In this document: positions 3,001 to 24,000 of the stretch, piece after piece
How the letters are laid out: each line of letters starts with the position of its first letter
Position numbering within the stretch: the first letter of the stretch is position 1
Source of the DNA: an uncultured Planctomycetales bacterium
GTDB taxonomy: Bacteria > Omnitrophota > Gorgyraeia > Zapsychrales > JAHFFX01
Length of the DNA: 64,000 nt
Reading direction: 5' to 3'
Assembly (NCBI GenBank): GCA_964612665.1
Contig: CAZTCI010000001.1
Coordinates: forward strand, 636,896 to 700,895
Notes under the pieces: model-generated
Told to the model about the DNA's origin: nothing
The model's input: only the letters and a program-made list of their open reading frames with translations
Database searches by the model: none
Program-made: the position numbers and the translations under genes

Positions 3001-6000
3001 CCACATCCATGATGCTCTTCAATCCCTGGAACCACTCGTCGCTGCCGAGCTTCGCGGCCAATCGGTCCAAAACGACCTGCTGTGAAGTCCCGGCCAGGAT
3101 CGCGATCCGACGCAAATTCCTGACCGTTAACATCAACTCATTTAAATCCTCCTCATTAAGCTGCGCGTTGAAGATCGCTTCTTCTTTTTGAGAAATTCTT
3201 GTCAGAAGCATGGATACTGTAGTATCTCCGATGATATTCATCAAAAGTGTCCATCGGTCTTTCAAACCGAGGATCCAGATGGGCTGTTCCTCGAGCATTT
3301 TTCTTAATTGATGAATCAACCAATCGGGCAACTGAACGCGGTGATTTTGTAAGATAACGATAGCATCAATCAATTCCACCGGATTCATCTCCACCTTCTC
3401 CAAGGCCAACAAGGCCGTGATGATGTGTCCCTGAGAGACGAAAAATGTCATCGCATCGATCCGTTCAGCGCTGGTTAAGTTATGGAACAATCCGCGCAGA
3501 AAGCGGATACTTTCGTCCTGATTCTTTTCTTTTTCTGCCAAATAGACGGCGACTTGGCGCAAATAACTGATGGAGGCCAGCGTCTGAGAATCTTTCATCT
3601 CGGGCCCAATGATGAGAGCTGGATCAAAATAGTCGGGCAATAGATTGAACCGTCTCAGTAATTTCAAGTCTTCAATGGTTAATGAATAGGCATTTTGAGA
3701 ATTTACCACAACAACTTCGGTACGAAAATCGCCTAAGGTTCCGTTCATATACGCCAGAATTTCATTCACCAAGGAATCAATAGAGATGTTGTTATAGATG
3801 CGCGTGGCGGCCATTCCTGCTTTCAGTTCTGTCCAGCGGTTAGGATTTTTGACCTCCCGTCGCATTTCATTCAACAAGTCGATGATTTCTTTTTCTTCCG
3901 CCGAGAGTTGGGATTTTTGGGAAGCCGCGTAGGCTATCTTAAAGATTTTTTCCAAGTGGAGATGGGTCGGTTCATGAACCCGGCCTTCTCTGTCCTGTTC
4001 CGGCCGATTGCCCCAATAAAATTCTCCATCATACGCGACACCGCCCACCGAAGACTCTTTGACCGGTAAATACATTTGTGCCACACCTCGGTGATTTGAT
4101 CCCGTCCCGAATTGAAGAGTCGTCTTTTCGCCGCCCAGGATTCGGAATGTCAATTTGGCGAAATGCGCGCGGAAATGGGCGTTGATATCCATAATGTGCA
4201 TAAAGAACGGATTACGGATCAATTCGTGATAAATCTCTTGCGGGCTGAGGTTCTTAATAAACTGAATGATCGAAAGGGCTTTGCCGGCTGTGGATTGCTC
4301 GGCGCTGAGGATCGGTTGAACATCGAAATTATGGACAAGTTGGTCCGGTGTGGCGGCGAGGAAACGGACGCGGTTGATTAAAGTGGCCACCCGGACATCC
4401 GCTTCTCTCATGTCCGTCAGGGCGGAGGCGTCGATCGTTTCGCGGCTCCAACGGTGCCACAGATAAACCCGATCCAGTTGATTGTTTTGATAAAGCAAAA
4501 ACAACGGCAGCTTAACTTCTCGTTGGAATTTTAAGCTATGGAGATAACGGAAAGACCAGCGGCGTTCGTGGGCGAAGAATTCGGGCGAAACCAGAGTGAC
4601 TTGATAAGCGAAGATCGTATGATTGAGCCGGCCAGGATACAACCGCACGGGTTTCAATTGATGGACCATCAACCGTTTAATCTGTTGTTCTTTTAATCCG
4701 GAGAAAATGCGGTCGAGAATAAAATTCACATCTTTGCGGCCGCGAGCCAAGAAGGTCGCGACCATGGCCTTCGCTTTCTTTTCCAGCGTCTCCGACGACC
4801 CCGCTCCAGTTCCAAATACAGCCGCACCTATCGCCATCGATATCACAGTCCCCATTCCAAGCCCTTTGCTGATCATCAAAATTTGAATGAAGGCGATGAA
4901 GGCGATTAGGAATGGGAATATGCTTGCCGAATCATTCGGCGTCAACGTTGTTTGACCGTCGCCGGTCGATGTTTTGAGGCGGTTGCCTCTCAAGGCAATG
5001 TAGCGGATTAAGAGCGCAAGAATGGCGAAGGCGATCAATCCAACCAGCAGCGGATGGGCGGTCAGGAGATTTGTTAAGGCAGAAAAATCAATGGCATTAG
5101 TCTTATTCTCCGCATGCTTATTCATCGGACTTACCATCTCTAATTTAGCATCGACGATATTAATAAACTGTTGAACTTTTTGCCGTGCTTCTTCAATGAC
5201 TTCGGGATGAGAAATAAATTCGGCAGGGATTTCAGCGATAAGTTCATTCGTTTGAGTAGTCTTTAATGGCTGTTGACTGGCAACATCCCCTTCCTCCTCG
5301 CTGGGCAACACCTCAACCGGGACGACTTGAACCAATCGAATTTGCAATTGTCTCACCGCTTCTCGGGCAACGGCCAATTGCGCAAAGAATATTTTGCGAT
5401 CCGTTGGAACATCCAGGACTGTAAGCGATTGCCAAATTCTATTGACCCAAATTTCATACGGCTCATTGATTAATTCTTTACGCATTGGATGCTCCGCCGC
5501 AAATAAGGCAACTTCATAGAACACTCTCGCCGCAATAGCCATCTCGGTTGAATCGAATAGATTTCTCCAGTGGCTCCATGTTTCCTCTATGCTGGAAACG
5601 TATAAATCTTCGTCCCTTCTTTCTGACATGTCGTAATATTCTAAAATTCTTTTCCAAAAATCACCATTCCATTGCAATTGCAAAGGCATGTCGTCCCACT
5701 TAATAAATGAAGTGTCATATGAGAATCTCTTCGATTCTCGGACTTTAATATTATTGTACCCTCCCAGTTGAAACCAGACGCCATCCAAAGGATAGGTAAA
5801 TAATTCCTCCGGTTGCCGGACAGCTAACATAAAGCTTCCGTTGTCCTCATGGGACGTATTTGCAAAAAGCTTAAACGGATCGACTAAGAACGTCTGCTTA
5901 TTAGGCCAATAAGAATATACAGAAGATGAAACCACATCATTCAAGCCGTTTAAAATATTTCTTATGCGCTGGCGTGTCTCGGCAAAACCCGTCGTAATCA

Positions 6001-9000
6001 AGGCACTATGAAGATAGATGGCTAGCGTTAAGAAATAAATCAAATGCTGTCCCTCCGAAAGGGCTGATTTAATTCTGTCAACCGCCCTTTGTGCCTCAGG
6101 ATGAGATTGATCCCGTATCCAAGATTTTTTTCCAGGAACGATGAATAAAATCAAACCTAACGTTGCATAGATATCCGCCAGATTTAAGACAAACATAGGA
6201 ATGACTTCGCCGGTCGAAACGAAAACGTTCCAGCTCAACCAATCCCAGGCTCCGCCCTGCATAATGACCTCTATGTTGTTACTCAAACCAGCGCCTATCA
6301 TGAAACCAACGGCAATGGCCGATTTGCTCGAAAATCCAAAAAACAGCTCTTTTCTCAAAAGCCAAATCCATGGGGAAACAATAACCAGTAATAAGGAAGT
6401 TTCGAGATTAGGAGTAATGTGCAGGGTGGGCGTAATTCCCCAATTCCGAGACACAAGCCTAAGTAGTGTGCCAGTGATTCCGGATTCATCGGAAGGATCA
6501 AAGAATAGGGCTTTGATAAATCCTGTTTTAGCCAACGCTATTTGAACAAATTCCGATGAGGCAAAAGACAGTATAATATTTTTCGCAACTTGATCGGAAA
6601 TAATGGCAAACAACACAACGGAGATAAAAAGAATGGTTCGAGGATAATTTCTCCTTAATTCTCTCATGGCTCGGAAGGTTGATTCTCTGCCTTGCTTTAT
6701 CATCATCCATCCGACTGAAATGAAGATGATCGCGACGAAAATGCTTAAAGGAAGCCAGGAATGAACAACGTCCTTCTTCCCCTGCCGTCGGGCAAAGAAT
6801 TTTTTGATCATCGGCGGCGCGCGCGACCGGAGATTCATTTGATAGAGGCCGATCAAGATGACCACGGCGATGATTGCGCCGGCCAAGAGAAGCTGCGACG
6901 GAATAGATGAAATAAAATCCACATTCAACGCATTATTTTTCTGGATTTCTTTATTCTTATCTTGGTTCTGCTGTCTTTTCCCAGAAAAGCGGCGGATTAA
7001 GTCCAAGACGATCATTCCTATTGAACCGATAATCGAAATGTATCCTCCAATGTTTATGAAAACGTCAGCAACATTATAAGCGAAACGTCCGTAGTAAATA
7101 AAGTCCGCCACTCTTCCTCTATATAAGAGGCTTAAGCCATTGCTGAGGTGGCCAGACAACATCAATATGAAGCCCATAGAAACCCAAGGAGCCAATTGAA
7201 CCATCCAGTTCGACCAGACCGAAGTCTTCCCCTTGGTCCGAGAAATTACTAAGAGAAATGCCGCCATTGTGACTTGCATTAATCCCGTTAGGAAGGCCAC
7301 GACCAAAGCAGTGCCTTCCGTAATCTCCAACTGGTCATACAGTTCGTGAAATATATGCGGCAAAATATTCTCTGTTCCTACCAACCATTGAGTGAATTGA
7401 TCAAACGCTACGAGCAAAGACACAATCATAAAAACGCGTCGAGATGCCATCAGAATTCTTGTCGTTAGAGAAAGATCTTTTTCTAAATTATCTTCTAAGG
7501 TAGTCTGCTGAGCGCTGTCATCAACGTTTTCGTCTTTCAAATGAGGTTCGACGGGCTGTTCGTTAGTTTCTTTGGCCACATCTTTTCGATGATAGGCATT
7601 GTACAAATTAAGGATGGATATAATGACTGGTATAACTGACAAGAGAACGGCAAGACCAGCTAACGCCACAATTGCTCCGCCATTTATATTTAGCAGGTTA
7701 ATCAGGTTGTTTAAAATGGTGACGTCGAAGGCGTTGTGCTGCGTACCACGACGATTTTCTTCCTCACTAGAATTCCGCAGCTGCTGATCTTTGGCGCCTT
7801 CCCGTCGGTCAGACTTGTAGGAACTCGTATCCAAACGAATGACTTTACTTTTCGATTTCTTGACGATGATTTTGGGTTGATCAGGGATGCCGGCATTGTC
7901 CTTTTCGCTGAACTTAGTCGGCTCCGTGGATTTTTTGGCTTCGGCCTCGATGAGCTGCGTTAATTTTTCGATAATTCCGAGCATAACGTCTTTGCCCGAG
8001 GCATAGAAATGGTCGATCTCCCGACGGGAAATCTGAATCTGGCCGATCCATCTGGCCATGAAATCATTGCGGCTCAACCACAATGTCCGGGTCGCCGGCA
8101 ATCCCATACTGGACAATCCTCTCGAATGCTCTTTGTTTAAATGCAGGACGAGAATAGTTAAATCTCCAGAATTTTTCTCTGCACCGTTCTCCTCGTTGTG
8201 TTTTAACCCATTGGCCAAAGACAAGGTGACTGACCAGCGGATCCTCTCCATCAATTCTGAGAAAGGCAAGTCGATGACAGATCGATCAATATAGTAGAAT
8301 CCGCCGGTAAATCCTTCCTGACTCGCCTGAAGTTTTTGCGCATTCGATAATGTTGTTCCGTGGAACGCGATAGAATGTCGACGGAGATAATCTTTAGTTC
8401 GATATAACGCGTTGATGATCTCTGTTTGTTTGTCCGTGCGGGTGCCCATATCGTCGGAGGAATTTGCACTTTCCCGAATTTTTTGTTTAAATAAATTCCT
8501 GATGAATATCCATCCAATAACCGTCGCCGATATCGCGATCAATATCGAGAATCCAAATCCATGAACCTGCGTTTCCTGACGATGCTCTTCTTGTTCCATC
8601 CGGCCCTTCGAACGATGCGGCAGGACGATTGATTGCGATCGCTCGATCTGCTTCGGTGTGATGGATTGCACTTTATTCGCTTCTCCCTGCAATCGTTCCT
8701 CGCCCTTCATTTTCTTCGTCGATTTCTCCAAACGCCCTTCCCCTTTTCTTGATGTTAAATTCATCGGCAGATATTTGACCAGCTGATAGGGTGCGGGATA
8801 ATCGGCCACAAATAATCCCAGCCCTTGCCGTGTAAGAATCAGGGCGCCGACGCGATTTGTTGCTTGCGGGAAGCGTTCGGCCAGGAGATTTAAGTGCGGA
8901 TACTCTTGGTGGACCTTCTCTAACAAAGGTTGAAGCAGGTCTTCGGAATCGCTTCGATACCATAAGACGACGTTGTGTTGGGAAGATCCGGGAACAGACA

Positions 9001-12000
9001 TCATCCGACGGATGATATCCGGCAGAACTTCAAAGTGGTTGTTGTAATCTCCGGCTCTCAGCACATGACTGACCATTCCCACGGCTTGATGGTCTTGGAT
9101 ATAAATGCCCGCCACTCCCGCGCAGGTATAAATATCCTTGGTGCCGAGGATATCATTCAATTCAAATCTCTGATTAAATAGCGTTCTTCGCGCAGGAACA
9201 TTTAAGACATTATGCGTTTGCTCATTCGATGATTCATATTGGCTGAAGGGCACGGAGAATAACGCAAGACCATTTTCGGTTCTTCCGGAATAAAACGCTT
9301 CTAAATCAACCTGCTTGCCTGTTGTGAGATATGAGAAATGATCCGCTTGCGTCTGTGCGAAGAAGATGTTTGCCTGAGCGGCAAATTCCTCAGCAGATGT
9401 GGATTCAAATGTGTCGGCATGCTTTAAATTACCTTCATCGCCGAGCAGAGCGAGCGAAACTTTTCGGTTGTTTATCTGGGTTTTTAAAATCTTGGCGAGA
9501 ACAAAAATGATGGACTCAACAAAAACGGCATGCAATGTGGTGGAAGAATTGTCTGTATTTGCTGGCTTGGGAGAAGCAGTAACAGCAAGGGCGGATTCGG
9601 TGATATGGCTGGTGGATTTTGTTGGCGAATGTTCTTTTAAGGCGAGGTATTTGCGGAGGCTAATCAAAATTCCCTTAATAAAATTGACCCGACTACTTCC
9701 ATAGGAACGTTCGAGAACAAAAAGGCCGCGGCTCACTGGATTCTGCGATCCTAACGATGAGAATCCCAAATAAGATTGTTTAAGAATATGAAAACCTGCT
9801 TTGATAAACAACTCGGCCCAATCTTCCATCGACTTGTAATTGCCAGGAACCAACGGTTCTCGAATACCATTGCCGAGGAAATAATGAACGAACCAGTCGA
9901 CCCCATGCAGAAAGGCGATGCGCTCCTCGTCACTGGATAGTTTAAGGAAGTTCGCTTCGATGCTTTGCCGAAGTTCAGTAATGGTCTCCTCTTGTGCCTT
10001 AACGGATTCTACCGCCAAACGATTACTAAATGTATCCTCCAAAACTACCAGGCGACCACCGCGCCGAATCACACGACGTACCTCACGGAGATATTCTTCC
10101 AATGGCACATCAACATGATGCAGGGTAAACGCCATCAGGGCCGTATCTGCCACTTCGTTATCGAGCGGAATGGTGTCGGGCTTCACCATCAATTTAAAGC
10201 TCACACCTTCAGGGTAAGCATTTTTACGATACTCTTTTATATCAACCTCGATGGCTCGTTTGACCTTCGGGTTGAAACGGAGGCTACGCTCGCCGAATAT
10301 ACTAAGCCCCGCACCGATATTCACTAACGTGGGGCCAAAAATATCTGGACGCAAAAACGCCTCTTTTTGAACACAAGCCGGCAGTTCAATGGTTGGAGCG
10401 GTTAACGGACGGATATATTCTTCTCGCATGATCTTCAAGATACCGAATCTACGGTTGGCTTCCTCAATCACTTCATCAGATTGCTGATCGGCCTCATGCA
10501 AGAAAACAATCATTTTTTCAATTTCAGCCCGATCATCTTGTCGGCCTTTGTTTGGATAAGCAACAATCCAATCAACCATTAAATGCTGTCCAGCTTTGCT
10601 GTTTAGTATTCTGAGTGGATCACGAGAAAATATTGATACACTTGAAGGAAGAGCAAATGTGCGGTTAATGATTTTGGCAATTTTTGCTGTTGGCGAATGT
10701 TCTTTTAAAGCGAGATATTTGCGGAGGGGGATAAGGCTTAAAGTAACAGCAAAAATTATGGTAGAGATAAGAATACTAAACCCAGTAAGATCAGATACAA
10801 CTATGGAGGTTTTGGAATCTGATGAATCTGATTCAGCGGCTTCTTTTTTCTGAGTCAATATCGAAAGTTCATTCTCAAGGCGAGGTAACAGTTCCTTTGC
10901 AGCTGTTAATTTGTTTCGTAATTTGATGAATTTGGGATCTTCACTGTATTCAAATCGTAGCCGGCTTTGATACTCACGGATGTCTCTGTTAATTTTAGCT
11001 ATTTTGCGGGTTAATTTTACTTCGCGGTAAATTTCGGGGATGAGTATTCTTAATACACCTCGCGTTAAAGCATCAATAATGAAAACCCCTAAAAAGCTAA
11101 TTGCGGCTCCAAACATCCCAACAAAATAGGACAGGGCGTATGCAGTGAACATAAAGCGTATATACCACGCCGTTCTCTCATATGGATTTATTGGTGGAGG
11201 GAATGAAATGTAGTTTGGAATAGTGCTACCCGCTAATAGTGATGCAACCATCCCTCCATAAAGAATAATCAATCCAAAACTTAACCTTCTTCCTCCATCC
11301 TTTTGGAAAAATACATCCCAAACAAATCCTGCCGCCACAGCAATGACAGCCATCACTAAACCAAGTATCAAATAAGATTCGACTTCAATAATAGAAATTT
11401 CATAATTCTTTGTATCAAATGAACGGATATGTGCTGGAGGAGCTCTGGAGTCAGATAATAATTTATAAATGCCCAAAATTACAATCAAAGCGCCCACAAT
11501 AAAGAGGGTGATTATTGGATAACTTAACAAATAAATTAATACAGAAATTTCAAAGGCAAAAAGATTGTTAGAGTTGTCATCATTCTTGTCATTCTTTGTT
11601 TTTATTCTAAGTATTTCTTTAATTCTATTCCATCGCGCTTGGCGTTTGATTCTTTCCGCTTCTTTTCGTTCCTGCCTGACATGATAATTCTTTATTCTAT
11701 CCTGTAATAGATCCCAGTCCTCTTTCCAACGTGGATATGAAGGATTTTCTTCTGGAATAATTTGTCTTTCAACATATCTAAAATCAGATTCATCCTGATT
11801 TGATCCAGTCTGGAAATATTCTCTTTCACTGTATGTTTTTAACCTTTCATATCTCTTTTCTAATTCTTTAATCCGTTTTTCAAATGGGGTTCGTATGTCA
11901 TATAAGATTGCTTTAATCAATCCATGAATCATTATCCCTATGATGACAAGAGCTCCTATTATAAATGGATAGAGGCCTGGACTTATTGCTTGAACTATTC

Positions 12001-15000
12001 TTTCAAAGATAGCCAGCCAATCGACAGGCAAGATCATCATTAAAACAGATAACACTGCAAATATAATTCCCATAATATCCAGTGGCGAAAGGAGGTTTAA
12101 CTTTTGGCCAGGATCTTTATTCCCGTCCTTCTTCTTTTCCTTTTTAGCTTTATCTTTTGCTATGTTCGCCTGTAAACGATCCCAACGGAATTTCCATGCT
12201 TTATAATCTGGATGATCTTCTGGATTAATTTCTTTTTCTCTATACTCATAATGTGTCTCATCCATATAAGAGCCTCCTATATATGGAATTCTTTCCGTTA
12301 TCTTTCTCATGGCTTCATATTCCCTTTTCAATCGCATTCGCTGTAAATCAAGTGGTGTTATTCTTTCATATATCAATGGCTTAAAAAAGCCAAACCAAAG
12401 CGTCGCACCTACCGCCCAGACAAAAAGTATAATAAACGGCCATGCACCAGGCGAAACAAATGCAACAAAACGTTCCAAAATGCCAGCTAAATCCCAGGGT
12501 AACAAAAATAATCCAAAGATTGACCACGAGAGAATAATCAGCATAATGTGTCCCTCACGAGATATTTTTCCTGATCGTGATCTAATTATGTTCCAAAGAC
12601 CAATCCCCAATCGGTTAAAACGCTGAACAAAAGTATTAAATAAGTTCCACATATCTCTCCAAAGATTAAGTTCTTTTGGATCTTCTCTCCAATAGATAAA
12701 TCGATAAAGATCTTCAAACGTTAACCTCAATACGAAACCGACATTACTTAAGCCGTGCCTAAACAAATAGCCAGTCACGATAGCCGTGACAATACCACTG
12801 AAAATATTGTAGAAAGGTACTCCAAAGAATTTTAACAATGCCATCACCGGAATCATGAAAATAAGTATTGTGAATTTATTACTTCTTAAAATTATCTGTA
12901 TAAATGCATCTACGTTTCTATAACCATTTCTTGCCACTCTTAATAATAATAAAAGTTTACGATCCATCTTGACTGCATAGTGCCATATTAAAGCAACGGT
13001 AGCTAAAACCGTCCAAACGATATCGGCTGGTAAATTTAAGGCTTTCAAAATTAAGAGAATAATGACAATAATTGGTAAAAGGCGGATTTCTCTGCGTCTT
13101 CCATACGCTTCACTTAACTTCATGCCATTTAGCAAAGGTTTCTGTACAAAAACTTTATTCCATAAAGTTTCTCTCAATCGGCTCGGATGTATTAAATCAG
13201 ATCTATTGAGGCTAGTTGCCCATATATCTTGCAAATTGCGTAATCTATATTGTTTAGTAAATGCGCCGTATGGCATAGTACCCGTCAAGAAAGAAAGCGC
13301 CGCTAAAAGATATGGTAATGTAATAACTGGTCCCCAAGAAGTCGTAGCGAAGAAGGAGACGATCCATGAAATGATCATCAAAAATGCTACTGTACCATTA
13401 AACGGAAATGGGGTGCTAAAAGGATTGTTCAAAATTTGGTTCAAGATGATAAGGCTAAAGCCAATACCCATGGTAACCAGAGGGCCAAGATAAACTGGCC
13501 ATATAATAAATCTTACCAATAATCCACCAACAAAGATAATCCAACCAAACCACCGAGCGATTCGAATAGCAGTGGGATTATTCAAAATACGGCTAAAAAT
13601 AATCAGACCGAGACCAAAAACTATTACAATCAACAGGCTCGGATTAAATGGCCATATAATAAAGCTTAATAATAATCCCCCAATTAAGCTCATCCAACCA
13701 AGCCAGTTAATCATCCGCGTACGAGAATTATTCCAATTCCAAATCCGGCTAAAGATAATAAGAGCAACTCCAAAATCAATTATAAATATAGGTGCAAATT
13801 TGAACGGCCACATGCCAAATCCTAAGAACGCACCAATGAAAATTGTCCAGCCAGCCCAACGGGCAATCTGAGCCGCTAATGGTGACCTTGATACTTTAAA
13901 TTCCAAGTACATGGTTTCTTGATATCTCTCCCTTGTATTTCTCTTAGTTAATAAAGAATCTTTTACTGTCGGAATAAATTTAAACTTTTCGTTAGCTGCC
14001 AGTAAAATCGCTCTCGGGAAGCTAACAATTAACGTTACATAGAAATTAAATCCTTTACGTATATCATTTAAAGTTAAGGCTATGGCTTTATAGATACTTC
14101 CTTCTTCTCTTAAATGACGCAAGAAATCATTAGCGTTAATGGCCTGCATCAAGAATGTACTTAAGACAGTGAAGACCAATACAGATTGTAAATAAGCAAA
14201 TGAACTATAAGGTGCGCCGGCCGGAAGCAGAATACCTAAAGCTAAAGCAAATATAGAAGAGAAATAATGGAGGAATAAGAAGATATGAGATAACTTTACA
14301 TCGTATCCTATTTTATCATTATAGAATAATTGATACTGCCCACGATCCATCATAAAACGAGTTACGTTAAAGGCATAACGTTGCTCTGTTGCATAAATTG
14401 ATTCCGCGAGTAACGATGGACGACCCCACTCAAAAGCCATCCAGTCAATCTGAGTTGATGTTACAAAGGGATGACGGCTCTGCAAAGATAAAAATGCTGC
14501 CGAATCTTCGCCGGGTGGAGAAAGCATCGTATCGCCAGCTGCTGGTGTTATTAATGCTTTACCGTAAAATGTCAAAAGACCTCGGCGGCCACGCTGTACA
14601 TCAGAAGTGAAGGTTTCCTGAGAAACTTTATAAAGGGCAGTAACTGGGAATGCATCTGTGGCTGAATCCCAAATGCGCATCATTGGATTGATAACCATAA
14701 TTTCAGGATTTCTTCCCACAAAACTGGCCCAAATTGGACGCCAAATATTTTGACCTGGATAAGTGCGAACATGAGCATCGTAATTGGCTGAACGGCCATA
14801 GGTCAACCACAAGTTAGTCCCAATACCACCGTTTTTATTTAAAGGAATTGGATTATCATTTTCTTTCCACCAATCCGTCGTATCTGGTTTCCGCATATAG
14901 AATGGTAAATAGACATTAGTAATGTCTGTCTTATGAATAACGGTTGAAATCTTAACCAAATTATCCCAATTGGGAAGTTTTCCGCGCACTTTTAAAATCG

Positions 15001-18000
15001 AAGCATAATTTTGTGAACGAAATTCCAGAACGACGCGGGCTGTATCGATCAAATTTTCTGATTCAACATAATTGTTCCCTTTATCATCCGTTTTTAATAA
15101 TCCTTTGGATTGGAACGCTGCACGGAATTGTTGAATAAGATATGCTTCTTCGGCGTTAAGTTTCCTCATATCAGCATTAATGATTCCATTCAAAATCTTA
15201 AAGCGGTAATGCCGCTCAGGGGTACGGTCGACAAATTGTCCCCAAATAGTTGCGTCTTGATAAATTGATCGCAATTTCAATAAGACCCGCTGCTTGTAGA
15301 CCAAGTATTTATCTAAGAAATCTGGTTTCAAAAAGCTGTCTGTTAACTTTTGAGCTTGATCCCGATAAGCTTCTTCCAAAGATGTATATAACTCTGATAA
15401 ATATCGAACAGCCTTATGATAGCTATAATCGCTAAATTGAGATGCAATCATTAAATGATAAACAATCTGATCATGGGCCATGTTCTCAACCACTTTATAA
15501 TTCGATGGACGAGACTCATTAAGAAATCCTTCCATTGCAGAAACAATCTCCATTTTATCTTCAGGGGTTAGATACCAATGATTTTCAAAAATAATTTTAT
15601 TAAAATCGGTAGTTTCATGAGCCCCGCGCAATTCTTCAACCACCGCATTAAATCTTTCTCCTTTTTGTCTTAACAAGGCAAGCGTATTGTCATATTGTGG
15701 TTTATGCGTTATCGCCATATATCCTAACAGAGAAACTTTCTTAGAAATTGGATCAATAGTTCTCTTATCTTTTATCTGCAGAGGATCAAACGAACCGGGT
15801 TGAGCAATAATCTCATAAGAGTATACAAAGGTTTCATCGGTCGTCTGGACATGCGTTGAAGTTCCTTGCAAATGCTCAAACACATCCATCATTGGTTTCT
15901 TCTGGCTAAAGGTATAGAAGGTCGTATACAAGAATTCTCGACCGAGGGCAGATTCGGGAATCACAAACTTATGTGCCTGAGGATTTTCGATGGCCAGGAG
16001 GATTTCATTAATTTCTGCACTGCTTATAACACCCGATTTATATCTTTCAAGAAATATCCGACGGAATTTCTGTTTAACCGTTTCTCCACTAGGTAATGGT
16101 AGACCATATTCTTTTTCAACCTTTAAGAATTCTTTATACCAACGTGTATAGAAGGATTCCCATCTACCTTTTTGCCAGAAAAGAATCCGTGCTATTGTCT
16201 TATTTCTTATTAAGCCTAACCTTATTAAAGAACGCCAGCTGATCAAGCTCCGGCCTGTTCTGCTCCAAGTGTTTACAACAGAAAGAATGTAGCTCTTAAT
16301 TACCACTGCAAAATGATAAATCGACATCAATGTTGGTAAAGCGCTTAATGACCAAATAGCAAACGTAATCCAGAAACCTAATGAACCAAATTGAATAACA
16401 TCGAACTTCCAGAAAAGATAATGTGGTAAAACACCAAAAACGTACAATGACGTTATCGTAAAGACTGATATCCAAAGTACTCTTTCTGAGAAATATCTAA
16501 CCTGGCCGTATAGTAAAACCGGTAAGATAATTGATAACGAAAAGATTGCCATTCCTACTGCTAAGTATGGCTTCACAATACCAATGTATAAGCCTATTCC
16601 GATGCCAAGAACCATCAAGGATATAACGTTGACCAGCCTAATTCCGCTTTCAATTCCCCAGAAGGCCCGCTTTATGAACATAAAGAAAATTCTAGAATAC
16701 ACATGCACAAGACCTCTCCAACCTTCAGTTCTTCTATCAAACCACGCCGCCCATGGAGAATGTTGTGCTGCTAATCTTAGGGTCAATGTTTTAAAGGGAT
16801 TCAAGAATCGTATAATATCAACTTCATTTTCTGCGTTTGCATAAGCTCTTCCACCAATAGCTCTGTATAGTCTTTCCAAGTCTTCGGAAGTACGATCATT
16901 GTTATAAAATGCTTTGCTAAGATCATTGAAATAATCAAAATGCCATTTTACGGCCTCTGATACCTTGGCAAATTTCATATTCTGTTCACCTAAAAATTCA
17001 TCATTTTCCTCTAATGTCTCATGCGTATAATTCTCATAAACAACTGTTAAAAGATTTTCCCATTCATTAAGGCCTTGTTCGTGGTCCATTTCCGACAACA
17101 TACTTATCAAATCATTAAAATCGAGATCTGAAAATATTTCTATTAACCTTTGAAGAGGCTGGAATTCACCTTGATTTTGAGGTTGAGTAATCCACCACAA
17201 TAAGCCTGGCATTCTGCCAAACTTTACAACACCGTCATTAGGGTTCTTATATTTCTCTTCATACCAATCATTGAGCCAGAAAAGATGCGTCCAAATTTCA
17301 GCATGCATCTTAATTCGTTGCATGACTTTTCTCGAAATCTCATCAAAAGCAATTCCCTGTTGTCTACCTTCATTAATGTAGTAGGCAGCCTCGCGTGCAG
17401 CAAAAACCGCTACAGGGAACATGGTCGCAATTCCTCCCATCGAATAGCCTTTTGTTTCAGAAGGCGCAAGCTGAGTAAATCTATGAAGAACAATTTCGAG
17501 CATGGTGGTTGGTTCAACACTTCTTGCAATTGGATAAGGATTAACTTCTACATTATCATTGTTCGAAATTTGCGCTGGTTGGATATACAAGAAGCGATAC
17601 ACTTCACTTACAATACTTTCAAAGAGCCGATCTAAAATTTCTTGATTAATTTGAGCGCCGATCCCCGTATGAACAATTCTCAAAAATTCTTCAAACTGTG
17701 GACGAATTATCTGATTAATTAATACTTCTCCTACAAACTCTCGGAAAGCTGCGCTGTCCCCTGTTTTTTCAATATATTCTTGAGCTAGATCTGCCAGAAA
17801 CTCTTCAGGGTTATTTGTGTTCAGAAGGTTTGTCTGAAGAATAAAGGATAGAATTTTTACTCCAGGTGTGGGCAAGAAATTCCGCACGGCTTCTAACCCG
17901 CCTTCTTGAGTTACAATTCTGGTAAGAAGTTCTCGGTCGGCTGCAGCCAAAACTAAATCTTTAAGCTGGTTCCAGAAATTAGCGCCCTCTGGTTCTTCTA

Positions 18001-21000
18001 TTTGCGGAATAATATTTCTCAAAATGTCATCAGCTGACACAAAACCGTGTTCAATCAAATACTGTACTACCATCGCTTTTGAGTAATGCTGTCTAGATGC
18101 GGCCTCAATTTGCGGTAATATTGGCTGTGAAATTTGAATATCTGGTGCCGGTATCTGATAACGTGGTTCATAATTCTCCTCTTCAAAGACTACTCTATTT
18201 TGAATCGTCAATCGAACAATCACTTCAATCTCTTCGGGAGTTAGTTCGATAAAGTAATTAGTAAGCGCATTTCTCTGTTGTTGTGAATTTAAATGCTTTG
18301 GTAAGACAAAATTGCTAGAAAGTTCTTTATGCATTAGTATTTTATTTGCTAAAACTTCTGCACTAGAACGATTAACTTGTGTACTTAGAATATTGCTTAA
18401 ACGTTCAAACCGCATTTTTACTGAATTGACGTTTCTTGTATGAATAATTACGGAGGCTAAGGTTGGCCTTCTTAATACAAAGGTAGCAAATATATTAACT
18501 AAAGTAATAATAGAGCTCAGGAACGAGAGGCTAAGGATTGATAAAGTCGAAATAAGCCAGAAATTAAAGAAGAAGTAACCATCGTATTCAATCTCAAAAG
18601 GATTACGGAAGAACAATCTTATGTAATCGACATAAATATCTTTAGTCAATGGGAGGCCATTTCTTAAATTCACATTGAATCTATTGGTCTCCGTTGTGTT
18701 CTTGGCCGTCTGAGCAACCATGTCTGCAACTCGGTCGAGGCTAATTCTATCTTTAACAAATTGACCTCCGATAAATAATCCATAAATATATCCTGGGATT
18801 CCATTTCTGAGTTTGTCCGGATTGGTGTAGTCATATACATTCAAACGGACAAAATCTCCCTCCAGAATCGCAAATAATTCATTATTACGAATAACTCGAT
18901 GTACTGGTTTAGTAATTGGTGTTGGCGAGTAGATATCTTCCGAATTGATCAAATATAAGTCACCGTTTTCACGGTAAACATTAGTTGAGAACAGACTGTA
19001 AAGATATTCTTTGGGTTTATTTTCTCCGACAAAAGGATATTGCAAATTACTTTGGACACCGCGCCAGCCTAGAGGAATCCGGGTTAGCCCTAGAGGGAAA
19101 TCCTCACGTGTATAAAGTTTAAATTCTTCTTTAACATAATGTTCGAAAACAATGCCAGTTCTATAATTGAATCCTAAAAAGATATCTCTTCCACCTGTAA
19201 ATTCGACCCCATCACGATATTCATATAAGACCCTATAAATATATTCATTCTCAGCTTTATTGTGTTGTACAAACTCCGTCTCTCTTAAAATACGGCCAAG
19301 TTTATTGGACACTGCGACTTCACCTGAAGCAATACCAACTGGCTGATTCTTTTGTTCGTATTGTATAAACCGAGTAAGACCTCTTGTTTCTTTAACATAG
19401 TAACGTGATAATGGATCATTAGCACCCAAATAACGAGTTTGCATTAAGACTTGTTTAGTCTCATCCTGGTTAACGAGTAAATAGCTGTTGATCTTCGCTA
19501 ACTTTGTTTCATGTAGAAGCGCTATATTTTTATTAATCAACGTCTTTTGGAGATTCTTATCGTATTGTTTAATTAAAGAGTTTGGCTCAACATTAGAATC
19601 TACAGTTTCCTGTTTAAACATGATGCCTAAATAGGAGAACTCATAACCCATTTGAGCATTCTGTCCTTCCCATTTAACGTTAATAACTGCATTTTGTTCA
19701 ACATTGCTTGAAACGAAAATTAAAACGCGGGCCAAAGGATCTTCAGTAATACGGAAGAAGAAGACCGTTCCGTCGTCCTTGGTTTCAGTTCGGGCTTTAA
19801 TGACTTTAATATCTCTTGGCAAGTTAGCAGAAATAGCAATTTCGCGTATGCCTTCAACTAATTTTTCAGTCGCTTTTGCCCGAAGCACATCACCCTGAAT
19901 GAAATTGAGGTCTTCGATGATTTCTTTTACTTCTGGACCATTATCACCAAAATGAATTGAAAATTCTTTCTCATCATAAGCTTCTTTAAAGATGTCTTTA
20001 GATTCATCAAAAATGTAAGTATCTTTTTCTTTTCTTGCTTGGAAAGTCAAACGATCTGCTTTGCCGTCCCCAACTTTGGCCTCTTGAGACAAAACTTCAA
20101 TGAAATAATTGTCAGATAAATTATCTTTATCGATACTAGCCATTAATTCTTGGCCTTCATAGGCACGAGATTTCTTTAAAGTTCCGTTAGGCAGAATTTC
20201 ATCAATAACCGTCCACGCTTCATTGTTGACTTTGGCATTAGTATTAACGGAATATCCGTAAACACCTAAATCAGTTAAAATTGTGTAATAGCCATTAATA
20301 TTACGGAAATAATAAATCGAACTGACTAATTCCTCTCCAGAATAACCTCGAATCTTATTAATTTCTGGTGATAAGCTACCAGCTGCTTTCTTAGTTTTAT
20401 CAATAACAACTACGCGACCATCTACAGTTTCTTCATGACCTGAGATCTGCAGTTTTTCACGACCCAAGACTGGATAGAATCTTAAGCCTTCTTCTCCCGT
20501 CAATGGATTAATACCAAAAACTCGTTCCAAATTACCTAAACGTAATGTCTTATCTGCAACCAGAATAGTTTCTCCTGTCATTTTTTCGTTACTTGACACT
20601 TCAGCTAAACTATGACGTTCGACAATATTAAACTTCTTACCTAAAACTTCCTGAGTACCAACGACTCTTGAAATAGCAATTGGATAAATAGTTAATGAAG
20701 GTTCTTTTTGTTTTCTCAAAAAGTCTTCTAGTTTATAAATACGAGATTCGCTTGGACTTACTAAAAGTTCGGCCTCAGCTTTGGAGAAATCACCTCGCAG
20801 ATAAATGCGCGCTTCAGTTACTTTATCAAAACCTTTGACTTCATATTTAGTCACCTCTTTTATCTTACGATACATATCCCGTGGCAATGTCTTCAATTCA
20901 TCCAAGGTCACATAAAAGCCTTGACCATTCTGAAGTACAACTAAAAAGCGTTCGGATCGGATCGTCTCCATAATTTCCTCACCGCTGGCACCAGGAAGGA

Positions 21001-24000
21001 GTGGATTAGCCTTGCTCAATTCGACATCCGAGGTCAATAATGGTAAGTATCCAATCGGTGGCTCATAGGTAAAGATGATTTCCTCACCATCATCAAATCT
21101 TCGATTATTATTAATGTCTTTAAAGAATGGATAACCTTCACCCGGCTTTTCAATATGGCTATAGTGGATATATTCTCCTTTATAACCACCCATACTTACC
21201 ATTTGGGTAAGAATTTCTTTGGTAGCCGGCTGGTTACGTAAAGCATGCGATTTCTTTGCCAAGGTCAAAGGTCTCGCCACGACAGGCTTGCCATTATATT
21301 TTAATTCGGTCGATTCAAACTGTTTATCATTTTGCATCATAACGACAAAGCCTGCCAAATGAATGTCGACAGGAACTTCGTCATAGAGCATTGATACATT
21401 GTCCGGCAGACCGTTAAAGCCCTTTGAAGTTTCATAGTCAAATAATTTCCATTGATATTTGCCCATCTCTTCAACAATATGGACAAAACCATTGGTAAGA
21501 TTAACCTTTTCTAAAAGAACTTCTTGGGTCAGAGGAACATTACTATTGTCGAAATGGATGGTGCCCAAATCACCGGCTAATTGCTCAGGCTTCAATAGAC
21601 TCAACATATAGTTAAATGCTTCTTTAGTGAAATCTAAAGCACCGCTCACATAAGTGCCATCTGGCAATCTGTACTTAGTGGATTGCCACGCTAAACGCAT
21701 GATTCCCTGTGCGTCTTTCACAGGGACGACACTTAAATTAGTACCTTCTCGTTCAAAGAGCATATCTTCGATCATCTTATTGGTAACTGGTAAGCCACCT
21801 TTTTCCTTGGTACGAAAGACTCCAAGTTTATATTCGGCTTCAATTGTTTTCACTAATTTCTCACCCTTAGTACCGATTTCGAGAACCGCATCAGTAATTT
21901 TTTCGCCATTAGGCATTGTAAATTCTTTCACAATCAAATAGTAATCTTGTGCACTAGTAGGCGTAATGATTCCTGGCTTGAGAATACCAACAATATAGCC
22001 ACGGCTACGATCCACCAAACTCCTCAACATCTCCTCCGTCAAAATATACGTTCCATACTTAGTATGAATCGCGCCGTAGCCGATGAATTTGGAATCTAAC
22101 ACAAGGCCTTCTTGGTTCATCATTTCATAAACAGGGAGATAAAGGGATTGCTTTTCGGCGTCACCCATATAGAGTGCTTTTAAGGCCTTCATGATGACTG
22201 TTGCTTTTGATCCCAGCTCGAGGTCTGTGTTTGCATTGATTTCACCGGTGGGCAATGAGAAGCCCATCGCTGTTTGTAATTTATAATCTTCTTCATTAAG
22301 CGGGTTATCGACTCGAGCAACGCCCGTCATGTTGATATGGCCATTAGCCAAATGCAAAAGTTGATTGCGGAAGATATCGTTAGAAATAAAGACAGTCCCA
22401 TGGTCCGGATAAATCAGACCATTGCCGATAAATTCTTTTGGAATGCTTACGCCCGCTTCAGCGGCTTTCTTCTCGGCTTCAGCTTCGCCAAGATTTAATG
22501 CGCGGATGACTGCGAGCACTTTTGTGGATTGCGCGTGTTCGCCTATTTCGAGCACGGCCCCTTTCTTAACAGTCAGCTTGTCGCTGAGATTAATGTCTTG
22601 GGTTGTCAACAGCATGAATATGATTTTTTCTTCGGGATTATTTGGATCTTTCTTGGCTAATGGTTTACCTTTGAGGTAGATCAATCCTTCCTTAAGATTA
22701 ATAATGCTGCTTAACTGATCTTTTGATAAGAAAAATGACCCTTCGTTGCTGCGGAAAATGGCGCCGCCGAAATATTTCTCATCCATTCTAATATTAAGCG
22801 CCGCTAATTGCTGACGTGCGGCTTCTTCGCCGAAAACAAAGTCAGTGACAGAATCCAAAACTTGTTTTGAATAAGCGCCTACTTCTACTGATTTCACCAT
22901 CTCAGGTGATAATTCAACACCGCCGATTTTTAACTTACGGACTGTGAGAAGTTTGAAGATATCCTTTCCTTCCTTCGTCTTAAGCGGCAAGATTTCACCC
23001 TTGAGATAAATGACTCCGAGATCCAAATCTACAATTTGGGCTAACACAAAGCTGCGTGGTATAAAGAAGCTTCCTTTGTCGCTGTGAACAACGCCTCCGC
23101 CGATGAATTCTTTCGGCAAGCTCATGCCAATTTTCTTATAATCAAATTTAGCTTGGGCCTCTTTGTCGTCCATGTACAGCGCCTTCAACGCATCCAAAAT
23201 CTCAGCCGACTTGCTACCAACTTCATATGTCGAACCCTCAGGCACCTCTGCACCATCGAAGGTGATCGCCTGTGTCGTATAAAGTTTATAAATAGTTTTG
23301 CCATTTTCTTTCATCTCTGAACCGTCCGGGTTCTTAAGCGCCTCGCCTCTCAGATAGATGCCCTGGTTCAAATTGATGAGCTTCGTTCTCACTGCGTCAA
23401 TTGGTGCAAAGAACGCACCTTTCGCCGTATGGAAGATCCCGCCGCCAATAAATCTCTCGTCGATATGGATACCTAACGCCTTGGCTTTCTCAGCGGCTTG
23501 GTCCGGTGACAGAGTCGCGTTGGCTTCGCTCAGACTAAAGATTTGAGCAAACAGGTTACGAACGACTTCGCCTTGGGCGAATGAGGCCGGTTGAGTTTGG
23601 TTGATCGCGAGTGCATTAAGAATTTCTAAGACTTCGCTCACCTCATGTCCTGGCATGAGGACAGCGTGTTCAGGAATTTCAATGTCGCCAACTTTGATCG
23701 CGCGGGTTGTATAAAGCGTATAGATTGGTTTACCTTGCGCGTCATATTTGCCGCTTTCTTCACCAGTAACGAAGATCACCGGAGCATGACTTAAATCAGT
23801 TAATTTTTCTATGAAGGCTTGTTTAGGCAAAAAGATATCACCGATCGAGCTGCTCAACAGCGCCCCGCCGATGAATTGGTCAAACTCCGGCGGCAGGGTG
23901 ATACCGCTTAAAATCTTTTCAGCTTCTTCGCGGCTGGGCAGTTCGAGATCTTTTAGAATGTCGTCGGAGACATTCAGCATCTTTGATTTGATTGAGGAAG

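What the first reader, a model, noticed from the sequence alone, without database searches (positions are those of the whole stretch)
11000..16700. About 5.7 kb polytopic membrane region with internally triplicated TM hairpins inside the giant ORF
A stretch encoding roughly 1,900 aa is dominated by hydrophobic helices. It includes three tandem ~40 aa units ('...GLGLIIFSRILNNP...') at 13.5-13.9k and aromatic/Trp-rich loops. Giant adhesin-like proteins are usually extracellular beta-repeat fibres. A membrane domain of this size, channel- or synthase-like, embedded between soluble enzymatic modules is unusual. It suggests the protein forms or gates a conduit in the envelope. That fits with the SLT domain, which cuts peptidoglycan.
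Basis: inference. Interest (0 to 1): 0.55.

Follow-up and report, generated by a model that had tools for sequence, protein, structure and literature searches.

The report
Polysaccharide-synthase-like membrane module in giant gene
Part of a bacterial gene over 64 kb long encodes a previously unannotated membrane module whose predicted fold and key residues resemble cellulose, chitin and hyaluronan synthases, which suggests this giant protein makes and exports a sugar polymer.

Summary
The whole window is one minus-strand ORF of 21,333 codons that is open at both ends. Amino acids 15,790-17,760 hold about 29 hydrophobic helices. Three tandem ~50-aa two-helix units (43-48% identical) lie at window 13,406-13,867. 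The region is not uniformly membrane, though: it contains a ~670-aa soluble domain and long charged linkers.

The conserved part (aa ~15,760-16,920) is a module with no Pfam, NCBIfam or PDB sequence match. It has 93 homologues, mostly fragments of very long proteins, with taxon labels from Omnitrophota and, more distantly, Endomicrobiia. An AlphaFold model of its core (pLDDT 78) matches only membrane-integrated processive glycosyltransferases: hyaluronan, chitin, cellulose and beta-1,3-glucan synthases. The invariant residues K, D, YGK, ED, TExRY and FxxTxK line up with the E. coli BcsA motifs KAGN, DxD, FFCGS, TED, QxxRW and FxVTxK at nearly the same spacing.

The triplicated hairpins are a lineage-specific insertion that does not change topology; homologues carry 0 or 1 extra hairpin there. 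The helices after aa 16,974 are lineage-specific anchor hairpins with cytoplasmic linkers.

The "synthase-like" reading is supported. The proposed link to the SLT domain is not. This looks like a new, very divergent variant of a known enzyme class.

The parts
1..64000 (-). Giant open reading frame: 21,333 codons with no stop, open at both ends. The first base of amino acid a is at window position 64000-(a-1)*3.
   Evidence: Six-frame stop scan.
16286..16633 (-). N-terminal TM bundle of the synthase-like module (aa 15,790-15,905; 5 hydrophobic helices). It is followed by a strongly K/R-rich stretch.
   Evidence: Hydropathy. Conserved and collinear in homologues.
14927..16285 (-). N-terminal half of the cytoplasmic domain (aa 15,906-16,358). 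It is mostly helical and contains a variable insertion. Invariant residues are E15996, E16056, G16069, G16093, H16182, D16191 and Y16194. Fold not established.
   Evidence: 35-sequence alignment. No Pfam, NCBIfam or PDB hit. The single-sequence AF2 model was unusable (pLDDT 39).
13901..14926 (-). Modelled conserved core (aa 16,359-16,700): the C-terminal half of a GT-A-like catalytic domain, an interface helix, TM helices and a loop.
   Evidence: AF2 with a 29-sequence MSA gave pLDDT 77.9 and pTM 0.76. Foldseek against PDB and BFVD returns membrane-integrated GT2/GT48 synthases.
14777..14836 (-). Invariant K16389-N16390 and D16408 ('NKNGGIGTN...NYDAHV'). Proposed equivalents of E. coli BcsA K340 (KAGNIN) and D360 (the first Asp of DxD, which coordinates UDP).
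   Evidence: K and D are invariant in 35 of 35 sequences. D sits directly after strand E46-48 of the model. K-to-D spacing is 19 here and 20 in BcsA.
14558..14566 (-). Invariant Y16479-G16480-K16481 ('TFYGK'). Proposed counterpart of the BcsA FFCGS acceptor-binding motif.
   Evidence: Offset to BcsA G433 is 311, the same as the neighbouring motifs.
14504..14509 (-). Invariant E16498-D16499 ('PPGED'). Proposed catalytic-base motif, equivalent to TED at the tip of the finger helix.
   Evidence: 32 of 32 invariant. Immediately precedes helix H143-151 of the model. The role of TED in BcsA is described in PMC8892547.
14375..14389 (-). T16538-E-Q-R16541-Y16542 ('TExRY..N') on the long membrane-proximal helix. 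Proposed QxxRW equivalent, with the Arg and aromatic residues retained.
   Evidence: R and Y are 32 of 32 invariant. They lie in helix H173-193, just before the first TM helix of the model. BcsA R382 and W383 stack on the glycan (PMC8892547).
13991..14305 (-). TM and interface helices after the catalytic domain (aa 16,566-16,670), containing invariant D16567, K16569 and H16578-Y16579.
   Evidence: Model helices H208-240, H247-275 and H278-311. Hydropathy. Weak collinear hhalign match to BcsA 514-610 (E 0.026, probability 1.9%).
13961..13978 (-). F16675-I-P-T16678-V-K16680 ('FxxTxK') in a low-confidence loop. Proposed gating-loop motif, matching FxVTxK ('FNVTAK', 617-622) in E. coli BcsA.
   Evidence: K is invariant and F nearly invariant. 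The loop has pLDDT below 50 at model residues 318-321. The FxVTxK motif coordinates UDP in BcsA (PMC8892547).
13406..13867 (-). Three tandem ~50-aa TM-hairpin units: U1 aa 16,712-16,764, U2 aa 16,765-16,813, U3 aa 16,814-16,865. This is a lineage-specific insertion.
   Evidence: Homologues have 0 or 1 hairpin at this site.
13250..13405 (-). Conserved terminal hairpin of the module (aa 16,866-16,917; 'PFNG...GP..LPYLLA..SF.TG..AF'), present in essentially all homologues. Proposed TM7-8 equivalent.
   Evidence: It is not similar to U1-U3.
10721..13081 (-). Lineage-specific series of TM hairpins (aa 16,974-17,760). Loops within a hairpin are short and K/R-poor (mostly 2-36 aa). The linkers between hairpins are mostly long and K/R/E-rich (34-133 aa).
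   Evidence: Hydropathy and loop charge. No similarity to any homologue beyond aa ~16,920.
11591..12583 (-). Tandem duplication of a ~160-aa unit made of a TM hairpin plus a charged linker: aa 17,140-17,300 and 17,301-17,470.
   Evidence: Smith-Waterman score 222, z = 35 against shuffles.
10600..22000 (-). Low-GC island within the ORF (aa ~14,000-17,800). It contains the conserved cassette and the hairpin series.
   Evidence: GC is 0.35-0.40 against 0.45-0.48 in the flanks. GC3 is ~0.32 against ~0.50, with sharp edges.

Best explanation
Amino acids ~15,760-16,920 of the giant protein form a self-contained membrane-integrated glycosyltransferase module of the processive-synthase type. Cellulose synthase BcsA/CesA, chitin synthase and hyaluronan synthase are the functional models.

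Proposed mechanism:
- A ~670-aa domain sits on the cytoplasmic face between two TM bundles.
- Its C-terminal half is a GT-A-like catalytic half-domain. It would bind an NDP-sugar (probably UDP-sugar) through K16389, D16408 and the FxxTxK loop.
- It would deprotonate the acceptor with D16499 of the invariant 'ED' at the tip of a finger helix.
- It would hold the growing glycan with R16541 and Y16542 on the membrane-proximal interface helix.
- The polymer would be threaded outward through a channel formed by the module's own TM helices.

The three tandem hairpins are extra two-helix insertions at a variable site, between the gating-loop motif and the conserved last hairpin. Each adds two helices, so they leave the topology unchanged. 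The ~14 helices after aa 16,974 are lineage-specific anchor hairpins that tether successive cytoplasmic linkers to the inner membrane.

Shown: the ORF, the helices, the repeats, family conservation, the fold match of the core, and motif collinearity.
Inferred: catalytic activity, processivity, the channel, the donor sugar and the orientation.
For: 1. Fold. An AF2 model of aa 16,359-16,700 built on a 29-sequence MSA has mean pLDDT 77.9 and pTM 0.76. In Foldseek against PDB, all top 50 hits are membrane-integrated glycosyltransferases. They include CvHAS 7sp7 (E 2.5e-5), Chs1 8k3p, XlHAS 8smn, BcsA 5ej1/4p00/4hg6, plant CesA (TMq up to 0.58) and Fks1/Fks2. The independent BFVD library gives viral GT2 and chitin synthases (E 1.5e-5 and weaker, TMq up to 0.59).

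2. Conservation. There are 93 homologues among 1.84 billion representative proteins. The core is the best-conserved part. Invariant residues in 30-35 sequences at 26-58% identity are K16389, D16408, Y-G-K16481, E16498-D16499, W16525/R16527, T-E-x-R16541-Y16542, N16545, D16567/K16569, H-Y16579 and K16680.

3. Motif collinearity with E. coli BcsA (sequence taken from NC_000913.3):
- K340 with K16389
- D360 with D16408
- G433 with G16480
- E456-D457 with E16498-D16499
- R496-W497 with R16541-Y16542
- F617/T620/K622 with F16675/T16678/K16680
The offsets are nearly constant (300-316). A regular expression of the ordered motifs hits the 21,333-aa protein once, exactly there. It also hits BcsA at its DCD motif and 21 of 35 family modules, and hits 0 of 300 shuffled copies of the protein.

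4. Structural placement of the motifs. D16408 follows a beta-strand. ED precedes a helix. RY lies on the long helix before the first TM. FxxTxK lies in a low-confidence loop. These match the published roles of DxD, TED at the finger-helix tip, QxxRW on the interface helix, and the FxVTxK gating loop (PMC8892547).

5. Topology. The 673-aa domain and all long linkers are K/R-rich. The short intra-hairpin loops are K/R-poor: my tally is about 8 K/R in 129 aa, against about 114 in 556 aa on the other side. By the positive-inside rule the domain is cytoplasmic, where NDP-sugars are found.

6. Architecture. TM bundles flank the domain on both sides and are conserved as a unit in homologues.
Against: - No sequence-level link to any GT family. 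There are no Pfam or NCBIfam hits for the window or for any of 29 family members, even at E up to 10. The family profile against PDB found no glycosyltransferase (only chance-level hits, E above 1). hhalign was negative against FKS1 1068-1330 (probability 0.15%), a 52-sequence GT48 profile (0.07%) and E. coli BcsA (1.9%).
- The canonical signatures are degenerate. Only the first Asp of 'DxD' is conserved (D-A-x). QxxRW is T-E-x-R-Y. No equivalent of the first UDP-binding Asp (Rs BcsA D179) was identified.
- The N-terminal nucleotide-binding half of a GT-A fold was not modelled.
- The motif mapping was made by eye and by spacing, not from a structural superposition, and the regular-expression test is post hoc.
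- TM-scores are moderate (0.4-0.6) and rmsd values are high for many hits.
- No activity, product or expression data exist.
Confidence: 0.6

Rival explanations
1. The module descends from a processive synthase but no longer polymerises sugars. It would act as a pseudo-enzyme, serving as a glycan-binding or glycan-threading membrane scaffold, or purely as a structural anchor within the giant protein.
For: The canonical motifs are degenerate: DxD is reduced to D-A-x and QxxRW is T-E-x-R-Y. No first UDP-binding Asp was found. No GT HMM recognises any family member. A ~280-aa helical insertion splits the putative GT-A domain.
Against: The residues that remain are exactly those that contact UDP, the acceptor and the catalytic base in BcsA. 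They are invariant across members down to 26% identity, including those from Endomicrobiia. That pattern indicates selection on an active site rather than on a scaffold.
Confidence: 0.15
2. It is a non-processive membrane GT-A enzyme, like polyprenyl-phosphate sugar synthases (DPMS/GtrB/PcManGT type). It would load a sugar onto a lipid carrier rather than making and exporting a polymer.
For: PcManGT (6yv7) appears among the Foldseek hits (rank 49, E 1.6e-2). These enzymes share the same GT-A core, interface helices and TM hairpins.
Against: All better hits are processive synthases. The family has an FxxTxK loop with the spacing seen in cellulose synthases, an R-aromatic pair on the interface helix, and about 5 + 5 flanking TM helices. 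Those features are typical of channel-forming synthases.
Confidence: 0.12
3. The fold match is an artefact of a shallow alignment and generic alpha/beta-plus-TM topology. The region would then be only a membrane anchor with an unrelated cytoplasmic domain of unknown function.
For: The MSA has only 29 sequences. TM-scores are 0.4-0.6 with high rmsd. All sequence-based tests are negative.
Against: Two independent libraries return a single functional class at the top, with Foldseek probability 1.00. Six invariant motifs fall collinearly on BcsA functional motifs, and 0 of 300 shuffles reproduce the pattern.
Confidence: 0.08

Closest known systems
Bacterial and plant cellulose synthases BcsA/CesA (CAZy GT2; PDB 4HG6, 4P00, 5EJ1, 8G2J, 8VI0)
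   Same: - Predicted fold of the catalytic C-terminal half, interface helix and following TM helices.
- Ordered motifs K..., D, aromatic-G, ED, R-aromatic and FxxTxK at nearly BcsA spacing.
- A cytoplasmic domain flanked by TM bundles.
- A final TM hairpin after the gating-loop motif.
   Different: - No detectable sequence homology.
- DxD reduced to one Asp; QxxRW is TExRY; FFCGS is FYGK.
- A ~280-300-aa helical insertion in the N-terminal half.
- No PilZ domain.
- 0-3 extra TM hairpins inserted before the last hairpin.
- The module is embedded in a polypeptide of more than 21,000 aa.
Hyaluronan synthases (CvHAS 7SP7, XlHAS1 8SMN) and chitin synthases (Chs1 8K3P, CaChs2 7STM), GT2
   Same: These are the best Foldseek E-values (2.5e-5 to 1e-4). 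They share the membrane-integrated processive GT-A architecture.
   Different: Their gating or C-terminal motif is of the WGTR type (from my own knowledge), whereas this family has FxxTxK. There is no sequence similarity.
Fungal beta-1,3-glucan synthase FKS1/GSC2 (GT48; 7XE4, 9WZS)
   Same: - A large (~600-aa) cytoplasmic domain with helical insertions between two TM bundles.
- A single-Asp 'D-A-x' motif (FKS1 has 'IDANQDNY'; sequence verified against 7xe4_F).
- Foldseek hits at E 1.7e-3 to 6.7e-3.
   Different: Profile-profile comparison with a real GT48 alignment is negative (probability 0.07%), as is comparison with FKS1 alone. No PF02364 hit. The GT2 enzymes match the model better.
Giant TM-rich ORFs of Omnitrophota, including 'Archaeovorin'-type and inner-membrane-anchored giant proteins
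   Same: - An ORF over 64 kb with dozens of TM helices.
- The sparse Pfam content typical of these ORFs: Methyltransf_11, HATPase_c, GGDEF and SLT.
- Homologues labelled Candidatus Omnitrophota.
- The literature describes this class of protein (10.1101/2023.11.21.568195; PMC10066038; 10.64898/2026.06.07.730766).
   Different: Those papers report soluble GT1 and GT5/starch-synthase domains. They do not mention a membrane-integrated GT2-like synthase module. West-Roberts et al. excluded TM regions from structure prediction.

Membership tests
Processive membrane-integrated GT2 synthases (BcsA/CesA/CHS/HAS) | GT-A fold catalytic domain | tested here: inconclusive
   The C-terminal half (aa 16,359-16,565) is modelled and matches by Foldseek.
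Processive membrane-integrated GT2 synthases (BcsA/CesA/CHS/HAS) | D, D, D, Q(Q/R)xRW signature (PMC8892547) | tested here: not met
   Read literally, the signature is absent. There is one invariant Asp at the DxD position (D-A-x) and an invariant ED at the TED position. T-E-x-R-Y stands in place of QxxRW, with R and an aromatic residue retained. No counterpart of the first Asp was identified.
Processive membrane-integrated GT2 synthases (BcsA/CesA/CHS/HAS) | Recognition by GT2 sequence models (Pfam Glycos_transf_2, Glyco_tranf_2_3, Chitin_synth_2, Cellulose_synt) | tested here: not met
   No such hit for the window or for any of 29 family members at E up to 10. The only trace is Chitin_synth_2 at E 1.2 on the N-terminal TM bundle, which is not significant. 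hhalign against E. coli BcsA gave probability 1.9%.
Processive membrane-integrated GT2 synthases (BcsA/CesA/CHS/HAS) | Catalytic domain on the cytoplasmic face, flanked by TM helices and amphipathic interface helices that form a glycan channel | tested here: inconclusive
   Flanking TM bundles and a positive-inside charge pattern are present. The model has a long interface helix followed by TM helices. Whether a channel exists was not tested.
Cellulose-synthase subgroup (BcsA/CesA/Csl) | Gating loop carrying FxVTxK | tested here: inconclusive
   The family has F-x-x-T-x-K (F16675, T16678, K16680). K is invariant and F nearly so, and the motif sits in a low-pLDDT loop at BcsA-like distance from the R-aromatic pair. 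Val is not conserved, and the equivalence rests on spacing alone.
Cellulose-synthase subgroup (BcsA/CesA/Csl) | C-terminal PilZ domain for c-di-GMP control (bacterial BcsA) | tested here: not met
   No PilZ hit anywhere in the 21,333 aa at E up to 0.01. A GGDEF domain does exist far upstream, at aa 4,764-4,873.
GT48 beta-1,3-glucan synthases (FKS/CalS) | Homology to the PF02364 Glucan_synthase domain | tested here: not met
   No Pfam hit. hhalign of the family profile against a 52-sequence alignment of PF02364-annotated proteins gave probability 0.07%. Against FKS1 1068-1330 it gave 0.15%. There is structural similarity only.
Giant ORFs of Omnitrophota | ORF over 20 kb with multiple TM helices and relatives in Omnitrophota genomes | tested here: met
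   A stop-free frame of at least 63,999 nt with 61 hydrophobic windows, some overlapping. The closest relatives carry Candidatus Omnitrophota labels: P0014, P0002, P0008, P0009 and JAFGHG010000076.1. The source organism of the window itself was not identified.
Any glycosyltransferase | NDP-sugar-dependent glycosyl transfer activity | not testable with these tools
   This needs biochemistry.

The most novel reading that the evidence does not exclude
The module founds a new glycosyltransferase family, with no CAZy or Pfam model, that polymerises and exports a glycan through a channel built into an inner-membrane-anchored polypeptide of more than 21,000 aa. The giant protein would then be a single-chain envelope machine. 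It would make its own polysaccharide 'coat' or tether in cis with its peptidoglycan-cutting (SLT), LspA-like and other modules. A further possibility is that the family's large helical insertion and single-Asp D-A-x motif make it a bacterial relative of the lineage that gave rise to eukaryotic GT48 glucan synthases.
Probability: 0.2. Interest if true: 0.75.

Novelty: new variant of a known kind. Interest (0 to 1): 0.58.

Why it matters
Giant ORFs of Omnitrophota and related ultra-small bacteria are among the longest genes known, yet they are almost devoid of annotation. The published structure-prediction screen deliberately skipped their membrane regions.

This work identifies a conserved, recurrent module (93 relatives, all 'hypothetical') with the fold and active-site layout of cellulose, chitin and hyaluronan synthases. 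That gives a concrete, testable function to one of the best-conserved parts of these proteins: synthesis and export of a glycan from the cytoplasmic face.

It also shifts the picture of these proteins from degrading prey surfaces towards building something as well. It defines a GT-like family that current HMM libraries cannot see.

Finally, it shows how TM-hairpin number can expand (0, 1 or 3 copies) at a topologically neutral site.

Tried and rejected
- Pfam and NCBIfam scans of all sub-segments, down to E of 1-5, gave nothing meaningful. The TctB hit (E 3e-5, below the gathering threshold) on a duplicated hairpin is judged a compositional TM match.
- phmmer of the 941-aa module, and a 29-sequence profile, against all PDB sequences found no glycosyltransferase.
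- Single-sequence AlphaFold of the 941-aa module gave pLDDT 39 and was unusable.
- I noticed by eye that the motifs resemble GT48 FKS/callose synthase, and tested this properly. I verified my recalled FKS1 segment against 7xe4_F (100% identical), collected real PF02364 proteins and ran hhalign. The result was negative, so I dropped GT48 membership.
- hhalign and a home-made profile-to-sequence global alignment against E. coli BcsA showed no significant overall similarity. Only motif order and spacing agree.
- The word-indexed homologue search found only 1 and then 4 relatives. The exhaustive search was needed.
The single-protein scan gave one Omnitrophota locus.
- I tested whether the conserved last hairpin is a fourth copy of the repeat. 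It is not detectably so (z about -0.5).
- I tested whether downstream hairpins are further copies of the unit. They are not.
- The upstream conserved cassette (aa ~14,300-15,150) has no Pfam or PDB match.
- Self-BLAST of aa 15,100-18,000 against the whole protein found no second copy of the module.

Full report
**1. What is in the sequence**

The 64,000-base window contains no ordinary genes. Its reverse strand is a single stop-free frame of 21,333 codons that runs off both ends. The only other stop-free stretch of at least 250 codons is 256 codons long. The finding (window 11,000-16,700) corresponds to aa 15,767-17,667 of this partial protein.

Kyte-Doolittle scans show no hydrophobic segments in the first 8,800 aa. 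There is a cluster at aa 8,859-10,087, and then a TM-rich zone from aa 15,143 to the end of the window. A finer scan of aa 15,700-17,800 gives 28 segments, plus one just below threshold.

They are aa 16,712-16,764, 16,765-16,813 and 16,814-16,865, at window 13,406-13,867. They are 43-48% identical. Smith-Waterman scores lie 12-15 SD above composition-matched shuffles. Each unit is a two-helix hairpin. At the DNA level the copies are diverged (mean column identity 77%) and Tandem Repeats Finder misses them, so the triplication is old.

A second, stronger tandem duplication lies at aa 17,140-17,300 and 17,301-17,470 (z = 35). Its unit is a TM hairpin plus a ~100-aa charged linker.

Trp is enriched: 2.9% in the region and 5.9% in the hairpins, against 1.1% overall.

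However, only ~30% of the residues lie in hydrophobic segments. One 'loop' of 673 aa (15,902-16,574) is a soluble domain.

**2. Topology (inferred)**

Helices from aa 16,700 onward come in pairs. The two helices of a pair are joined by short loops, mostly 2-36 aa, with almost no K or R. Successive pairs are joined by longer K/R-rich linkers of 11-133 aa.

My tally is roughly 8 K/R in 129 aa on one side and 114 in 556 aa on the other. The 673-aa domain begins with a very basic stretch.

By the positive-inside rule, the large domain and all linkers are cytoplasmic, and very little of this region is exposed outside the membrane. This agrees with the 'inner-membrane-anchored, cytoplasmic-face' reading proposed for many giant Omnitrophota proteins (10.64898/2026.06.07.730766).

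**3. Relatives**

Pfam, NCBIfam and PDB sequence searches are blank for the region. The word-indexed protein search found a single relative.

The exhaustive HMMER search of 1.84 billion representatives found 93 relatives, 56 of them at E up to 1e-30. Many are pieces of very long proteins, up to 7,623 aa.

Those long enough are collinear with the window protein from aa ~14,400 to ~16,920, and with nothing beyond that. The finding therefore splits in two:
- a conserved module, aa ~15,760-16,920;
- a lineage-specific tail of hairpins, aa 16,974-17,760.

Labelled relatives are Candidatus Omnitrophota MAGs. Two distant relatives (21-24% identity) are from Endomicrobiia, and one of them is mis-named 'MFS transporter'.

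The Pfam content of the rest of the window protein fits the published TM-rich giant ORFs of Omnitrophota (10.1101/2023.11.21.568195; PMC10066038):
- SLT, aa 10,605-10,699
- two Methyltransf_11 domains
- GGDEF
- weak HATPase_c and Peptidase_M50
- two signal-peptidase-II-like modules

**4. What the conserved module is**

A 35-sequence alignment shows that conservation peaks in aa 16,380-16,700. The invariant residues are K16389, D16408, Y-G-K16481, E16498-D16499, W16525/R16527, T-E-x-R16541-Y16542, N16545, D16567/K16569, H-Y16579 and K16680.

AlphaFold2 on the core (aa 16,359-16,700) with a 29-sequence alignment gave mean pLDDT 77.9 and pTM 0.76.

In Foldseek against PDB, the top 50 hits were all membrane-integrated glycosyltransferases:
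- Chlorella-virus and Xenopus hyaluronan synthases (best E 2.5e-5)
- yeast and Candida chitin synthases
- bacterial BcsA
- plant CesA (TMq up to 0.58)
- Fks1 and Fks2

The viral structure library independently returned GT2 and chitin synthases.

I then took E. coli BcsA from NC_000913.3. The family's invariant residues fall on BcsA's functional motifs at a nearly constant offset of 300-316:

| E. coli BcsA | Window protein |
|---|---|
| KAGNIN K340 | K16389 |
| DCD D360 | D16408 |
| FFCGS G433 | G16480 |
| TED E456-D457 | E16498-D16499 |
| QRIRW R496-W497 | R16541-Y16542 |
| FNVTAK F617/T620/K622 | F16675/T16678/K16680 |

A regular expression encoding the ordered motifs hits the 21,333-aa protein once, at D16408. 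It also hits BcsA at its DCD and 21 of 35 family modules. It hits none of 300 shuffled copies of the protein. This test is post hoc but still informative.

In the model, each residue sits where its BcsA counterpart does (roles from PMC8892547):
- D16408 comes right after a strand.
- ED comes at the start of a helix, like TED at the finger-helix tip.
- RY lies on the long helix preceding the first TM, like QxxRW on the interface helix.
- FxxTxK lies in a low-confidence loop, like the mobile gating loop that coordinates UDP.

**5. What the triplicated hairpins are**

In most homologues, the sequence after the FxxTxK loop runs straight into one conserved hairpin ('PFNG...GP..LPYLLA..SF.TG..AF'). 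In the window this hairpin is aa 16,866-16,917. Two homologues, P0004 and P0010, have one extra hairpin before it. The window has three.

The conserved hairpin is not itself a detectable copy of the repeat.

The triplication is therefore a lineage-specific tandem expansion at a variable site. Because each unit adds two helices, it does not alter topology. It is an accessory feature, not the heart of the module.

**6. Limits**

All sequence-based membership tests failed:
- no GT Pfam hit in any of 29 members;
- the family profile against PDB found no glycosyltransferase, only chance-level hits;
- hhalign was negative against FKS1, a real GT48 alignment and BcsA.

The GT48 resemblance I first saw by eye is therefore not supported as homology.

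The canonical D,D,D,QxxRW signature is only partly present. Channel, donor and product are all inferred.

**7. Verdict**

The best explanation (confidence ~0.6) is a very divergent processive polysaccharide-synthase-like module. It would have a cytoplasmic catalytic domain and its own TM channel, and it is followed by lineage-specific membrane-anchor hairpins.

Rivals:
- an inactive descendant of such a synthase, used as a scaffold or glycan binder (0.15);
- a non-processive GT that loads a lipid carrier (0.12);
- a spurious fold match (0.08).

'One 1,900-aa membrane domain', 'unusual for an adhesin' and the SLT link are not.

Polytopic regions in giant Omnitrophota ORFs are known. But the three papers I checked report only soluble GT1 and GT5 domains, and one of them excluded TM regions from structure prediction. 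This module therefore appears to be undescribed.

I rate it a new variant of a known kind, with interest 0.58.

Noticed in passing
window 10,600-22,000 (aa ~14,000-17,800): A sharp compositional island lies inside the ORF. GC is 0.35-0.40 against 0.45-0.48 on both sides. Third-codon-position GC is ~0.32 against ~0.50, so amino-acid composition does not explain it. The island covers the cassette shared with other giant proteins. This suggests in-frame acquisition or a mosaic origin.
   Followed up: partly
window 7,025-7,423 and 6,137-6,616 (aa 18,860-18,992 and 19,129-19,288): Two signal-peptidase-II (LspA, Peptidase_A8)-like membrane modules are embedded in the giant ORF (E 1.6e-12 and 4.7e-6). 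Both score above Pfam's gathering threshold.
   Followed up: no
Smith-Waterman z = 35.
   Followed up: yes
window 49,382-49,711 (aa 4,764-4,873): A GGDEF diguanylate-cyclase domain (E 1e-6) sits in the same polypeptide as a cellulose-synthase-like module. Bacterial BcsA is activated by c-di-GMP, but no PilZ domain was found here.
   Followed up: no
window 33,740-37,426 and 39,239-39,934 (aa 8,859-10,087 and 8,023-8,254): A second, separate cluster of ~13 hydrophobic segments, preceded by a weak Peptidase_M50 (site-2 protease)-like match (E 4.5e-4, below the gathering threshold). The SLT domain follows at aa 10,605-10,699 (window 31,904-32,188).
   Followed up: no
L001 (ENA ERZ27250192 k141_520460), positions 31, 403, 3799: The homologous region on this 3.8-kb contig has three in-frame stop codons. 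The tblastn alignment to the window protein runs straight through one of them, and another falls inside the GT-like core. It could be a pseudogene, a split gene, recoding or an assembly error.
   Followed up: partly
L002 (ENA ERZ1286166 contig_2864, 70.6 kb): The contig carrying homologue P0023 has 23 consecutive same-strand ORFs called within the 21.6 kb fetched. Only P0023 was shown to be a homologue. The pattern looks like a giant gene broken up by long-read indel errors.
   Followed up: no
P0056 (MDR1940826.1) and P0086 (MCL2335638.1): Distant members of the module family (21-24% identity) occur in long Endomicrobium and Endomicrobiia proteins. One is annotated 'MFS transporter', which looks like a misannotation.
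   Followed up: partly
window 10,640-10,735 and 9,572-9,667 (aa 17,756-17,787 and 18,112-18,143): A 32-aa segment is repeated ~355 aa apart at 56% identity, flanking the Methyltransf_11 domain at aa 17,919-17,986.
   Followed up: no
window ~18,500-20,800 (aa ~14,400-15,150): The cassette conserved with other giant proteins begins ~1,300 aa upstream of the synthase-like module. That upstream part has no Pfam or PDB match, so its function and any link to the module are unknown.
   Followed up: partly
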